From Eledone cirrhosa (taxonomy: Eukaryota): a stretch of 64,000 nucleotides of DNA. Location: assembly GCA_964016885.1 (NCBI GenBank), contig OZ024751.1, forward strand, positions 31,186,001-31,250,000. The letters run 5' to 3'. The notes under the pieces are model-generated. The model ran no database searches and was not told where the DNA came from. It saw nothing but the letters and a program-made list of their open reading frames with translations. The stretch's first letter is position 1. Every line of letters starts with the position of its first letter. Both the position numbers and the translations under genes were made by a program. Of this stretch, positions 3,211-58,419 are shown in pieces.

Positions 3211-3213
<3 letters not shown>

Positions 3214-3401
3214 GAAGGAAATGTGGTAAGGAACCAGATGGACCATAACGCACCAAAGTACTCAATACTTAGGGTAGTAGAGTGGGTAATAGGAACGAGT
3301 AGGACCCCGACGGCTGAGCTCAAGCCGTTTCGACGACTAATTTTGGACTCAGAATTAGCCGTCGAAACGGCTTGAACTCAGCCGTCGGGGTCCTACTCGT
3401 T

Positions 3402-3406
<5 letters not shown>
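3211..3406 (-). mobile_element. Fold-back 'hairpin+tail' mini-element family A
   Basis: Inverted repeat 3289..3406 plus ~80 nt tail, (TA)n on both sides. Contains GAAACGGCT..AGCCGTC. Confidence 0.8.
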
Positions 3407-4623: not shown

Positions 4624-4816
4624 ATAGGAACAAGTATGACCCCGACGGCAGAGCTCAAGGCGTTTCTACGGCTAATTCAGTCCAGATTTAGCCGTCGAAA
4701 CGGCTTGAGCTCTGCCGTCGGGGTCATACTTGTTCCTATTACCCACTCTACTACCCTAAGTATTGAATACTTTGGTGCGTTATGGTCCATCTGGTTCCTT
4801 ACCATATATCCTTCGT

Positions 4817-4818
<2 letters not shown>
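4624..4818 (+). mobile_element. Fold-back mini-element family A
   Basis: Hairpin 4624..4739 plus tail; reverse-complement match to 3211..3406; (TA)n flanks. Confidence 0.8.
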
Positions 4819-12280: not shown

Positions 12281-12479
12281 AACGAAGGAAGTGTGGTAAG
12301 GAACCAGGTGGACCATAACGCACCAGAGTACTCGATACTTTGGGTAGTAGAGTGGGTAATAGGAAAATAGTCAAGACGCCGACGGCAGAGCTCAAGCGGT
12401 GTTACGGCTATCTCTGAGTCCAGAAATAGCCGTCGAAACGGCTTGAGCTCTGCCGTCGGAGTCTTGACTCTTTTCCTAT
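12281..12479 (-). mobile_element. Fold-back mini-element family A
   Basis: Tail plus hairpin 12359..12479; (TA)n flanks. Confidence 0.8.
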
Positions 12480-12581
12480 ATATATATATATGTATATATA
12501 GTAATAATAATAAATTTGAAGACTAAAATCCAAAGAGGGCTCGATAAGGATAAATATATATCAAATATATAAGAACCGTAG

Positions 12582-27165: not shown

Positions 27166-27207
27166 ATAATTACAAAGACCAAAATCTAAAGAGGGCTCAA
27201 TAAGGAT

Positions 27208-27243
<36 letters not shown>

Positions 27244-29643
27244 ATAAAATAGTATGTATAAACCCATAGAGCAAATATTTGTTATTAGTACAGATTAAAA
27301 TTTAAGCAAAGAATCTAGATCCTGTAATAGAGTGAAAGCAGCGATTCTTTGCTTAAACTTTAATTTGTACTACTACTAATATATATATATATATATATAT
27401 ATTATTAGTAGTACAAATTATATATATATATATATATAACATTAATTATAGCTATGTATAATAATAAACATCTTTCAATATTCACAAACAACCTCCACAG
27501 TAAAATATTCAATGATTTACAAGACTATCATCATCAACAACACCAATTGACACTAAATAAAAAGAAATAATTGAAATCAAAATAAAAAAAAAAGCTCCAG
27601 AGGTGGAAGGATTTTCAGTTTTATTTATTTAATTTATATATTTTACATATGAATAATAATAACAACAGCATTAAACAAAATAATAAAAATAATAGTGATA
27701 ATATTTCTGTTTTTTAAACAACAGTTGCAATATTTATAAAAACTGCCATTCATTGAAATATTAACTGCTAGTATTTTTAAGATAAATATTACAAATATTG
27801 ATTTATTTAACAACCAATCAATTATAGAAACCAATCAATTTATTAAGTAATAATTTTTTTGTTTGTGTTTATATTTAGTTGATTTAGTATTTTGTTGTTG
27901 TTATATTGTTTAGAAATATTTCTGAAGTTGTCATTATACAATTGTTTGTGTATCTGTCTCTGTCTCATTGTTCATATTTCACTGTCCACAGAGATCTTTG
28001 TGTAACTCTTTCTTTTTCTGTTCACATTTCACTGTCTATATTAATTCCTTTAGAAAGATGGACAGCGATGTTTGTGAAATTGTCTCTCTGTTCATATTTC
28101 ACTGTCTATATTAATTCCTTTAGAAAGATGGACAGAGATGGTTGTGTAGCTGTCTCTCAGTATCTCTGTTCATATTTTACTGTCCATAGAGATGTGTGTG
28201 TAACCCCCTCTCTCTCTCTGTTCGTATTTCACTGTCCACGTTAATTCTTGGATAAAGATGGACAGAGAAATTTGTGCAACTGTCATACTGTTTATACTTC
28301 ACTGTCTATGTAATTTCCTGAAGTTGGACAGAGACGTTTGTGTATTCTGTCAAAAGAAAGTGACTTCCACTCCCTTATTAATCCGAGTTACTGTGCTTAA
28401 TATATTTAATTTTTGCATTCTTTTAAAGGGAAGCAGACAGGCAGATAGATAAATAGGTAGATTGACAAACAGAGACAAATAGATACATAACAGATAACAA
28501 AAAGATGATGGTGGGAGACAAAATAGAAGATATACACAAGAAATTCTTGATTTAGAAACATAAGATCAACATAAACACGGTCGATAACTCGTACATTTTT
28601 ACTGAAATTGTCTCCCTTGAATTACAGACCTAATTGTGAGGTACAAGTATTTTCAGTGTATTGAAAGTTTTAGTTGTGTCTGTGTAAATTATATTTTTCA
28701 TATTGTTCGGGGAAAATGACACTGTATCCCATTTTGACAACACAATAATTGTGCTTTATTTCATAAATTTATCATTAAAAAAAAGATTTTGCCAATGATA
28801 TCACACTTCGCACCAGTAACACTTTTATATGTAGTGTATGTATGTGTATATATATCACTGAATGCATTAGTAGAGAAAATAGACATTTAATTCATATAGA
28901 AATGACTTATACATGACTTCATTTTAGTCTTGAAGAAGCTGTTTCTATATGAAATAATATATATATATATATGGTGGTTATATATATATATATATATATA
29001 TATGGTGGTAATATATATATTATATATATATATATATATTAGTGTCTTTAAAAATGACAACAGTTTTATTATAATTATTGTTATTATTACTATTATTTAT
29101 TATAGAGAATGCTTTTTTTTTCAATAGGAACAACAGAGTTTTTTCTGTAATGTTTCATGCAATATACTATGTAGGGTATACTACAAATATACACTAGAAA
29201 ACTCTATATGCACTACACTAGGTGGTTCAACTTGCCACTCTAACAGTGGTTACAACAAGCACACTCCAATACTCCAACCCACTCTTCCATATTCGTTTCC
29301 AGTTTTGCCACTCCAGTCAAGCCTGACAGGTAAACACCTCAAACTGTAACTCTCCTAATGTTTTGCTTCTCTCACTGTCACTGATTCACTCTCTATTTGT
29401 CATATGACAGCTTCTTACTCCTCCCACCCCCACCCCAGCCATCCTATTAACCATGTTATGTCTACCACCCAAAGGCCCCACACTAAATATTAAGCCATCC
29501 AAATTATTGGCCCTCTCAAGCCCTGCTCATATCTTTTCCAAACACGAGTGGAGCTACAACAACTTAAATAGAACATGAATGGTGTATTGATATCTTGGAG
29601 GTTCTGTGTAGGCTAAGGGCACTGTCTCTTCCTCCATACCTAC

Positions 29644-33183: not shown

Positions 33184-33252
<69 letters not shown>

Positions 33253-33421
33253 AAATGTGTGAGATCCTTGGTACAGTTAGGTATATTTGAAAAAAAGGAA
33301 AAGAATGACTTCACTTGTAGTGTTAAACATTTTATGATTTAATTCTATAATATTATAATATTATAAAATTAAATCAAAATTTTTTTAACACTACAAGTGA
33401 AGTCATTCTTTTCCTTTTTTT

Positions 33422-33460
<39 letters not shown>

Positions 33461-33876
33461 TAAACAAAGTTTCTTACACTTAACATGTATGAGTTACCAT
33501 TGGTTTTGGGGTTCAGCACATACATGTTAAGTGTATGAAACTTTGTTTATACTAAATAAGCTCTTTTCCAACAGAGCACTGTTTTGCTTGATCTTTCAAC
33601 TATGGATTTCTACCAACGTATATATATTATAAATATATATATATAATAAATATATATTTATAAAGAGTCAGGCCCCTGACAGTTGAGCTCTTGCTATTTT
33701 AACAGCTAGTTCCAGACTATTTATATATATGAACTCCTGATGGTGTCATTAGGGGTGCTATACTGGCATACAGTGTGTCTTGGGTATTTTAAATCTGACA
33801 GAGCTTATCTCCTCTCCAGTTCTGAACACACCTGATTTCTTAGAGAGAAAGGGAGAATAAAATATGGGGTACCTAC

Positions 33877-33996: not shown

Positions 33997-34470
33997 CTGA
34001 AGGAGAAATAAATTTTTTAATGAACATTATATATAGTACATGAGATATATATCTACTAAGTGAAATATCATATATATATATATTATTAGTACATGAGATA
34101 TATATCTACTAAGTGAAATATCATATATATATATATATTATTAGTACATGAGATATATATCTACTAAGTGAAATATATATATATATATATTATTAGTACA
34201 GATTAAAGTTTAAGCAAAGAATTCTTTGCTTAAACTTTAATCTATACTAATAATAAATATTTGCTCATCAGTATGAGCAGCCAGTTACAGCCGGTTTGAA
34301 GAGAAAGAGGTAAGAGAATGCTGGCCAGATATGGCAGGTTTAAATGCTAAAGGGTTAACATAAGTATGAGCAGCCAGTTACAGCCGGTTTGAAGAGAAAG
34401 AGGTGAGAGAATGCTGGCCAGATATGGCAGGTTTAAATGTTAAAGAGTTAAAATAAGTATGGACACTGAC

Positions 34471-35637: not shown

Positions 35638-35655
35638 CCTCGCTTATATATATAT
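34958..35655 (+). mobile_element. Helentron/DINE-1-like non-autonomous element
   Basis: Starts actagc..acccgtcgttgcccagggt (subterminal hairpin), ends aaatttggtc..(CA)n..cttatatata. Confidence 0.55.
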
Positions 35656-35658
35656 ATG

Positions 35659-35995
35659 GAGGCATGTGGGTTAGTGGTTAGAGCATTGGCCTTGCAATCG
35701 AAAGGTTGTGAGTTCAATTCTCAGACCAGGTGATGTGTTGTTTCCTTGAGCAAGACACTTTATTTCACATTGCTCCAGTTTACTCAGCTGTAGAAATGAG
35801 ATGATAGGACTGGGGTCCATATCATTCCACTGTAAAGTGGACGTGGAGGCGCCATGGAAAAAAAGCACCCAGCACTCACTGTAAATGAGGTTGGTGTTAG
35901 GAAGGGCATCCAGCTGTAGAAATCAAGCCAGAATCAGTTCTCGTCCCACCCTTGCAAGCAGGGAAAAGCGGATGTAAAATTATGATGATGATGAT
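35659..35995 (+). mobile_element. SINE family 2 head with RTE-like tail ending (gat)n
   Basis: Head matches 5346; tail gttaggaagggcatccagctgtagaaa...gatgatgat. Confidence 0.75.
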
Positions 35996-36004
35996 ATATA
36001 TATA

Positions 36005-36169
36005 TCAGATAGGGTGTGGTAAAAACCAGCTAGACCATAATCCACCAGAGTACTTGATACTTGGGGTAGTAGAGTGGGTAATATGAAAAGATTCAGAACT
36101 CCAGTGGCTGAGCTCTGGCTGTTTCGACTGGCCAGATCTCAGCCGTCGGGGTCCTGAATCTTTTCATAT
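36005..36169 (-). mobile_element. Fold-back mini-element family A (diverged)
   Basis: Tail gaccata..ccagagtacttgatacttggggtagtagagtgggtaat plus hairpin 36081..36169. Confidence 0.75.
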
Positions 36170-58108: not shown

Positions 58109-58419
58109 TTTTTCAATCGACTTTTTCAAATTGCTGGCCTTGTGTCAATGTTAGAAATAGTTATATTTTAATCATTGTGATGATACACACACATACATAT
58201 ATATGTATGTGTGTGTGTATTATCACAATGATTAAAATATAACTATTTCTAACATTGACACAAGGCCAGCAATTTGAAAAAGTCGATTATATCAACCCTA
58301 GTACTTTATTTTTTTCGACCCTGGACAGATTTAAGGCAAAGTAGACCTGAGAGGGATTTGAAACTCCCAATTAAGACATAACAAATGAAAAAGAAAACAT
58401 AGGTACATAGCTTACTTAC

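What the first reader, a model, noticed from the sequence alone, without database searches (positions are those of the whole stretch)
3211..3406. Family A: ~195-bp hairpin+tail elements in (TA)n, with copy-specific arm matching and a hammerhead 3' half
Seen: five copies (3211, 4624, 12281, 36005, 56575), each a long hairpin (~55-bp arms in the first three) plus ~80-nt tail in TA-rich context. The two arms within a copy match each other at positions where copies differ: aggaacgagtaggacccc vs aggaacaagtatgacccc vs aggaaaatagtcaagacgcc. The inversion was therefore made per insertion or per subfamily, or is homogenised. In the first three copies the arms read GAAAC-GGCT-tgagctc-(A/T)GCC-GTC, a hammerhead stem III with GUC triplet and near-palindromic loop, and the fold-back centre is a stem-II-like hairpin. 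The CUGANGA half is missing. Inference: non-autonomous Penelope termini made by fold-back at the ribozyme.
Basis: partly seen in the sequence, partly recalled or inferred. Interest (0 to 1): 0.75.

Follow-up and report, generated by a model that had tools for sequence, protein, structure and literature searches.

The report
Mirrored Penelope stumps with half ribozyme
These hairpin repeats in TA microsatellites are real and are most likely short stumps of a known kind of jumping gene (Penelope-like, Hydra type); their central loop points either way relative to the one-sided tail, which suggests the enzyme probably copies one short RNA onto both ends of a DNA cut.

Summary
Confirmed: five tail+hairpin copies in (TA)n, plus a sixth single arm (33658-33720). 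In copies 1-4 the arms group by copy (11 of 19 variable columns by copy, 0 by side); copy 5 does not fit. The hammerhead 3' half is real: the same motif retrieves 128 viral matches, 81 with CUGANGA beside it. No CUGANGA was seen in any copy or in the listed read extensions. New here: the 4-nt apex is flipped relative to the tail (GACT in copies 1-2, AGTC in 3 and 5) and junctions differ between copies. That argues against simple one-strand fold-back and for two cDNAs primed from both cut ends. The tail carries a bulged hairpin 5 nt past the short arm's end; published Hydra-clade consensus ends carry the same hairpin behind their hammerheads. A coding Hydra-type element next to copy 3 leaves similar stumps but shares no sequence with family A, whose coding parent was not found. 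The inverted-copy-plus-tail layout is published. This scan reported the same class, the tail hairpin and the two-ended idea before, on other pieces of this genome. Verdict: new member of a known kind, interest 0.4.

The parts
3211..3288 (-). Copy 1 tail (78 nt); RNA sense is the - strand
3289..3345 (-). Copy 1 tail-bearing arm; hammerhead 3' half at 3309-3331
3346..3349 (-). Copy 1 apex: AGTC in the sense of the tail-bearing arm (GACT read from the tail)
3350..3406 (+). Copy 1 tail-less arm, runs into (TA)n; hammerhead 3' half at 3364-3386
3258..3283 (-). Copy 1 bulged tail hairpin, starting 5 nt past the point where the tail-less arm ends
4624..4739 (.). Copy 2 hairpin; apex 4679-4682, same orientation as copy 1, junction 2 nt shorter
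4740..4817 (+). Copy 2 tail; bulged hairpin 4745-4770 with a private G-to-A change at 4767 that 95-99% of reads lack
12281..12358 (-). Copy 3 tail; bulged hairpin 12328-12353
12359..12479 (.). Copy 3 hairpin; apex 12417-12420 is flipped (AGTC read from the tail, so the loop belongs to the tail-less arm)
36005..36080 (-). Copy 4 tail
36081..36169 (.). Copy 4 hairpin; arms of 52 and 39 nt joined near stem III, apex loop absent
56575..56670 (.). Copy 5 old hairpin; tail-less arm complete through the AGTC apex, tail-bearing arm short
56671..56753 (+). Copy 5 tail; bulged hairpin 56682-56707
33658..33720 (-).

Best explanation
Family A copies are head-to-head pairs of one ~140-nt sequence in (TA)n with a tail on one side only, and they are most likely stumps of the terminal repeat of a Hydra-type Penelope-like retroelement, probably made when the element's enzyme cuts both strands of the TA run and copies the RNA onto both cut ends. 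Shown: the architecture, arms grouped by copy, the hammerhead 3' half, the flipped apex, the varied junctions and the tail hairpin. Inferred: (1) the two cDNAs start at two fixed sites, one at the tail end and one 5 nt before the bulged hairpin, which gives the one-sided tail; (2) one cDNA runs to or near the AGTC apex and the two 3' ends are joined at short complementary stretches, so the loop comes from either cDNA; (3) CUGANGA is lost because it lay upstream of the RNA's 5' end or of the junction. The RNA may start at the initiator-like TTAGTC in loop II (about 45%). The copies cannot self-cleave alone (no core).
For: Architecture matches the published PLE pattern of an inverted 5'-truncated copy with a tail at either end (PMC8557442 passages; PMC3846280 passages). 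A purified PLE protein cleaves AT-rich DNA and extends both strands from two internal start sites that delimit the tail (PMC11167929 parts 1-2). Apex GACT in c1, c2 and AGTC in c3, c5; c4 and c5 join elsewhere and c6 is a single arm. Of 16 listed X1/X2 contigs across the centre, 11 have gaps against copy 1 (7 of 5-7 letters). Both ends run into (TA)n in reads: 3774 reads behind 4739 and 1668 behind 4804 in run X6. Hammerhead half: 134 of 20000 shuffles; the motif pulls 128 viral matches, 81 with CUGANGA within 60 nt against 1 on the opposite strand, 24 of 46 clusters against 1. Tail hairpin: 38 of 40 cells paired in five copies; the G-C version occurs 3 times in the window against 0.13 expected, each in a tail next to TA-rich DNA; Hydra consensus records in the supplement of PMC8557442 carry it 38-43 nt behind their hammerhead cleavage site (25 nt in family A). 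A coding Hydra-type element in the window (12582-13583) leaves its own arm+tail stumps at 27243-27372, 34183-34270 and 51680-51839.
Against: No coding parent and no intact hammerhead were found. Family A has no significant match to the neighbouring Hydra element (best E 0.14) or to the searched supplement text. None of the 24 listed loose-end rows lies at the stem II boundary, where an intact core would branch off (86 rows not shown). The 30-letter extension seen in 39, 52 and 55 contigs (agreement 0.49-0.61) has no CUGANGA. The alleles that group arms by copy are common in the family (e.g. 4713 T>A in about 36% of X1 depth), so arm matching alone cannot separate per-insertion from per-subfamily. 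The tail is 78-83 nt, not the published 30-40. The tail hairpin shows no covariation within family A, and its A-T version alone is near chance in this window (3 found, 0.75 expected, 5 of 100 shuffles). Many reads extend at least 5 nt beyond AGTC (622 and 400 reads in X7), so the 5' end is not sharp. Read ends at 4674, 4688, 3342 and 3353 fall on AATT and are probably enzyme cuts. Only about a tenth of arm depth in X1 crosses the apex, so the share of true hairpins is unknown.
Confidence: 0.62

Rival explanations
1. Same Penelope-type origin, but made by self-priming: one cDNA folds back at stem II and copies itself, and the flipped apexes and short arms arise later, by endonuclease resolution of a hairpin intermediate or by inversion and deletion within the palindrome.
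For: Self-priming is the published reading of palindromes at inverted PLE junctions (PMC3846280 passage). Extended contigs offer an imperfect natural helix around the apex. Long palindromes are prone to deletion (own knowledge), which could explain c4-c6.
Against: Two of four copies with an apex are flipped, including the fairly young c3. A cDNA that starts at the short site cannot template a tail. The copied arm stops exactly 5 nt before the tail hairpin in all five copies.
Confidence: 0.2
2. The whole hairpin+tail is one master RNA (a SINE-like non-autonomous element); arms match because each subfamily master had matching arms.
For: The arm alleles are shared by many copies, the family is abundant (21420 of 12467656 reads laid in X6), and ends are discrete.
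Against: Six copies show at least five different centres, contigs across the centre differ in length, and the apex is in both orientations.
Confidence: 0.1
3. A non-autonomous DNA element: a palindromic MITE with TA target duplication, or a rolling-hairpin replicon whose terminal hairpin flips like a parvovirus end.
For: Near-perfect 118-bp palindrome in TA; flip/flop loops are the mark of hairpin transfer (own knowledge).
Against: The outer arm ends are the most variable part, the opposite of transposase-bound ends; the tail is on one side only; the arms hold a hammerhead half and the tail a Hydra-type hairpin; a coding PLE in the window leaves the same kind of stump.
Confidence: 0.05

Closest known systems
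Hydra clade of C-terminal EN+ Penelope-like elements (Craig et al. 2021, PMC8557442; abstract, passages, section 11 and supplement search hits seen)
   Same: Insertion into (TA)n; hammerhead near the end; in the supplement's consensus records a bulged GCTC...GAGCAC hairpin follows the hammerhead.
   Different: Family A has no ORF, only the 3' half of the hammerhead, a 5-6 bp stem III, and an A-T first pair in the tail hairpin; its sequence was not found in the searched supplement text.
EN+ PLE insertions with an inverted 5'-truncated pLTR and one-sided tail (PMC3846280 passages; PMC8557442 passages; PMC11167929 parts 1-2 of 4)
   Same: Head-to-head inverted copy, palindrome at the junction, tail on one end, AT-rich target, initiator-like motif in the pLTR.
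   Different: Minimal size (165-200 bp), tail of about 80 nt instead of 30-40, junction inside the ribozyme, apex in both orientations.
Animal non-LTR retrozymes (bioRxiv 10.64898/2026.07.22.740005, part 1 of 5 read; PMC7229834, search listing only)
   Same: Short, non-coding, high-copy, hammerhead-related, thought to depend on PLEs.
   Different: Retrozymes are direct tandem units each with a complete type I hammerhead; family A is an inverted pair with no core.
L1 twin priming (recalled; not read here)
   Same: Two primers from both target strands copy one RNA and join at microhomology.
   Different: In L1 it gives an internal inversion without duplicating the 3' end; here both cDNAs copy the same segment, giving a palindrome.

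Membership tests
EN+ Penelope-like element insertion | Inverted 5'-truncated copy head-to-head with the main copy | tested here: met
   definition
EN+ Penelope-like element insertion | Tail extension on one end only | tested here: met
   5 of 5 hairpin copies have one tail; length 78-83 nt against the published 30-40
EN+ Penelope-like element insertion | ORF with RT and GIY-YIG endonuclease continuous with the repeat | tested here: inconclusive
   none attached in 6 of 6 copies; the neighbouring PLE is unrelated in DNA; no genome held; collection scans empty
Hydra clade | Insertion into (TA)n | tested here: met
   definition
Hydra clade | Complete canonical hammerhead in the terminal repeat | tested here: not met
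   3' half only; no core in listed read extensions. So filed as 'works like', a probable stump, not a proven member
Hydra clade | Protein motifs RWK, DKT, CxCx5C, no CCHH | not testable with these tools
   family A has no ORF; the neighbouring element has CxCx5C and its full-length relatives have RWR/RWQ and DKT
Non-LTR retrozyme | Two or more direct tandem units each with a complete type I hammerhead | tested here: not met
   definition
Type-SGC or type II permuted hammerhead | CUGANGA block downstream of the GAAA and cleavage blocks | tested here: not met
   no core at 1 mismatch and no U3-A8 variant in c1-c3 with 60-nt flanks; definition
MITE / TIR DNA transposon | Conserved inverted repeats forming both ends of the element | tested here: not met
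   one end is the unique tail; outer arm positions are the most variable

The most novel reading that the evidence does not exclude
Family A is a self-propagating ~140-nt RNA that starts at an initiator inside loop II of its own hammerhead, so it has discarded the catalytic core and kept only the signals for a Hydra-type reverse transcriptase, which writes it onto both ends of a TA break. The two orientations of the 4-nt apex then record, copy by copy, which of the two cDNAs finished first: a genomic read-out of two-ended priming by a telomerase-related enzyme.
Probability: 0.3. Interest if true: 0.62.

Novelty: new member of a known kind. Interest (0 to 1): 0.4.

Why it matters
How Penelope-like elements build inverted ends and one-sided tails is open: PMC8557442 calls for mechanistic work and PMC11167929 leaves the steps after first-strand priming unvalidated. 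A short, abundant family with a directional 4-nt apex separates two-ended priming from fold-back with a simple count, and gives a 140-nt template for an in vitro test. The copies also place 55-bp perfect duplexes in introns, likely substrates for RNA editing (not tested).

Tried and rejected
Whole genome: none held. Rfam: no hammerhead among the 150 listed of 211 window matches, nor among 17 for copy 3; only generic hairpin (miRNA) hits below gathering score. Collection scans for the tail and arm motifs: 0 in metagenome, genome and viral contigs. Related loci for the Hydra ORF in viral contigs: none. No RNA holder listed, so expression and small RNAs are untested. My first idea that copy 3 is the 5' end of the neighbouring PLE was rejected: no shared DNA, and that element's own inverted tail (12500-12551) lies between them. 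My first clade labels for that ORF (Naiad, then Neptune) were replaced by Hydra. Permuted hammerhead (type II or SGC): no downstream core. Sharp read ends at AATT sites were set aside as probable enzyme cuts; the GANTC site at the apex could likewise bias runs X1/X2, whose library is not on record. RNAalifold of the five tails gave a different, weakly supported fold; one search used a mis-registered structure and was redone. Sequence and relatives look-ups in earlier findings were empty. Literature: no paper held 4 of 5 terms; three papers held 'Penelope-like' and 'twin priming' (listing only), none on PLE ends by title. The Octopus vulgaris repeat library (PMC13282606; part 1 of 3 read, supplement listed but not read) and Repbase/Dfam could already hold this family.

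Full report
Observation. Each has a 76-83 nt tail on one side and a hairpin on the other, with TA-rich sequence at both ends. A sixth relative at 33658-33720 is a single arm without tail. The hairpins of copies 1-4 fold far better than shuffles (z -19.0, -21.0, -15.0, -9.9); copy 5 does not (z -1.7). Copies 4-6 lie between long minus-strand ORFs of a probable PDZ-domain gene (weak Pfam PDZ hit, E 0.00086), so they are probably intronic. An earlier scan note calls this genome an octopus; I did not test that.

Arms. Within-copy identity is 54/57, 52/56, 52/59 and 33/39 for copies 1-4, and each of those 8 arms is closest to its own partner. Of 19 variable columns in the shared segment, 11 group by copy, 0 by side and 8 neither. 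Copy 5's arms are only 66% alike and match other copies better. The grouping alleles are common across the family (4713 T>A about 36%, 4726 A>C 19% and A>T 27%, 4731 T>C 23% and T>G 22% of X1 depth), so this result alone does not separate per-insertion from per-subfamily.

Centre. The palindrome closes on a 4-nt loop. Read from the tail it is GACT in copies 1 and 2 and AGTC in copies 3 and 5. Copy 2's junction is 2 nt shorter than copy 1's; copy 4 joins near stem III without the loop; copy 5 has a short tail-bearing arm; copy 6 begins at AGTC. In reads laid on the inner 79 nt of copy 1, 20 of 24 listed loose-end rows lie at 3343-3353, around the apex, and 4 at the outer edges (86 rows not shown). 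Of 16 listed X1/X2 contigs across the centre, 11 have gaps (X1 and X2 are one sample, and the list favours long pieces). Junctions therefore vary while one arm tends to end near AGTC. Caveats: molecule ends at 3342, 3353, 4674 and 4688 fall on AATT in RAD libraries and are probably cuts; the apex also holds a GANTC site; and apex-spanning depth is only about a tenth of arm depth.

Hammerhead half. The arms read C-GAAAC-stem-palindromic loop-stem-GTC. A half of this quality arose in 134 of 20000 shuffles (motif chosen after seeing it). A stronger control: the family's motif retrieved 128 matches in viral contigs, of which 81 have CUGANGA within 60 nt, against 1 on the opposite strand; after clustering, 24 of 46 against 1. 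The fourth stem III pair is T-A in copy 1 and A-T in copy 5, with the 8-nt palindrome kept; a palindromic loop 3 is typical of PLE hammerheads (PMC4209133, parts 1-2 of 4). The other half is absent: no core in any copy, none at one mismatch in copies 1-3, no listed loose end at the stem II boundary. A longer 5' extension exists in 39 contigs and 52 and 55 contigs. Its 30-letter consensus (agreement 0.49-0.61) ends in TTT before AGTC, holds a GGCTA that could pair with TAGCC, and shows no CUGANGA. TTAGTCC fits the initiator consensus YYANWYY (recalled, low information).

Tail. Five nt past the point where the tail-less arm ends lies ACTC-TACT-loop-AGTA-TY-GAGT-AC: 38 of 40 cells paired, no covariation within the family. 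The listed read variants in this stretch fall in the loop and bulge, except 4767, where 95-99% of reads restore the pair broken in copy 2 (17 rows not shown). The G-C version occurs at 23498, 33560 and 55907 (3 found, 0.13 expected), each in the tail of an unrelated TA insert; the A-T version alone is near chance. I took this lead from earlier scan notes and then checked it against print: in the supplement of PMC8557442 the two records that precede Hydra-1_Obim and Hydra-1_Crog end with a complete hammerhead followed 43 and 38 nt later by the same hairpin, and Hydra-1_Ajap starts with two copies. The passages I read in that paper do not describe the hairpin.

Neighbour. Copy 3 shares its TA run with a 5'-truncated RT-to-GIY-YIG ORF (12582-13583) that has 110 longer relatives and Hydra marks. 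Its 3' end (14524-14600) recurs as arm+tail stumps at 27243-27372, 34183-34270 and 51680-51839, and its own tail sits inverted at its left end. So a coding PLE in this window produces the same layout. Family A shares no sequence with it (best E 0.14), and family A motifs were not found in the searched supplement text (line breaks and cut runs could hide a match).

Abundance. 21420 of 12467656 reads in run X6 were laid on copy 2 at 80% likeness; both ends run into (TA)n. RAD and contig depth cannot give a copy number; six copies in 64 kb suggest many thousands. One contig from a second organism carries the tail (X5, depth 2; weak).

Mechanism. A purified PLE protein cuts AT-rich DNA and extends both strands from two internal RNA sites that delimit the tail (PMC11167929). 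Applied here: one cDNA starts at the tail end, the other just before the bulged hairpin; one runs to about AGTC; their 3' ends join. Either cDNA can supply the loop, which gives both apex orientations, and other joins give copies 4 and 5. These steps are inferred. The two-ended idea and the RNA-start idea were also proposed in earlier scan notes for other pieces of this genome; the flipped apex is my own evidence for them. The published alternative is self-priming (PMC3846280), which needs an extra step to flip the apex.

Novelty. The inverted copy with a one-sided tail in TA repeats is described. I found no paper on such minimal head-to-head stumps or on two-ended priming for PLEs (searches; listings only for papers not named above). 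Family A fails the complete-hammerhead test and has no known ORF, so it works like a Hydra terminus but is not shown to be a member. Verdict: real, most likely PLE-made, new member of a known kind; interest 0.4.

Noticed in passing
window 12500-14600 (+): 5'-truncated Hydra-type PLE: ORF 12582-13583, two ~140-bp tandem units that begin with TTAGTC (14168-14445), a degenerate hammerhead-like 3' end, and its own inverted tail at 12500-12551.
   Followed up: partly
window 27243-27372, 34183-34270, 51680-51839: Arm+tail stumps of that coding Hydra-type family; at 27175-27270 and 51770-51800 a TA-rich run sits inside what looks like the tail hairpin loop.
   Followed up: partly
window 33452-33620 and 55850-56063: Two more tail+hairpin inserts in TA, each with a GAAAC...GUH half-hammerhead in the arms and a GCTC...GAGCAC tail hairpin.
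   Followed up: partly
window 23440-23570: Single arm plus tail of the same family as 55850-56063, with a perfect 7-bp tail hairpin.
   Followed up: partly
window 33250-33429: AT-rich 74-bp-arm palindrome with a 33-nt tail in (TA)n; no hammerhead half seen.
   Followed up: no
window 58115-58288: 174-bp palindrome without tail, with a microsatellite at its centre, made from a SINE-like sequence.
   Followed up: no
window 25040-25075: CTGATGA followed by GAAA and a later GTC; possible hammerhead-like motif, not folded.
   Followed up: no
window 35655-35980: tRNA-like SINE (by eye) whose microsatellite tail hosts copy 4; a ~32-bp direct duplication follows copy 4.
   Followed up: no
window 33758-61673 (-): Exons of a large PDZ-domain gene, including ORFs of 595, 683 and 1031 codons.
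   Followed up: partly
L001-L124 (viral contigs): Many phage-like contigs carry type II hammerheads with the same GTCGAAACGGC...GCCGTC block; one cluster holds 49 of 128 matches.
   Followed up: partly
run X4 laid on window 4624-4818: Small run (88 million letters, kind unknown) in which the tail is about three times deeper than the arm, unlike X1.
   Followed up: no
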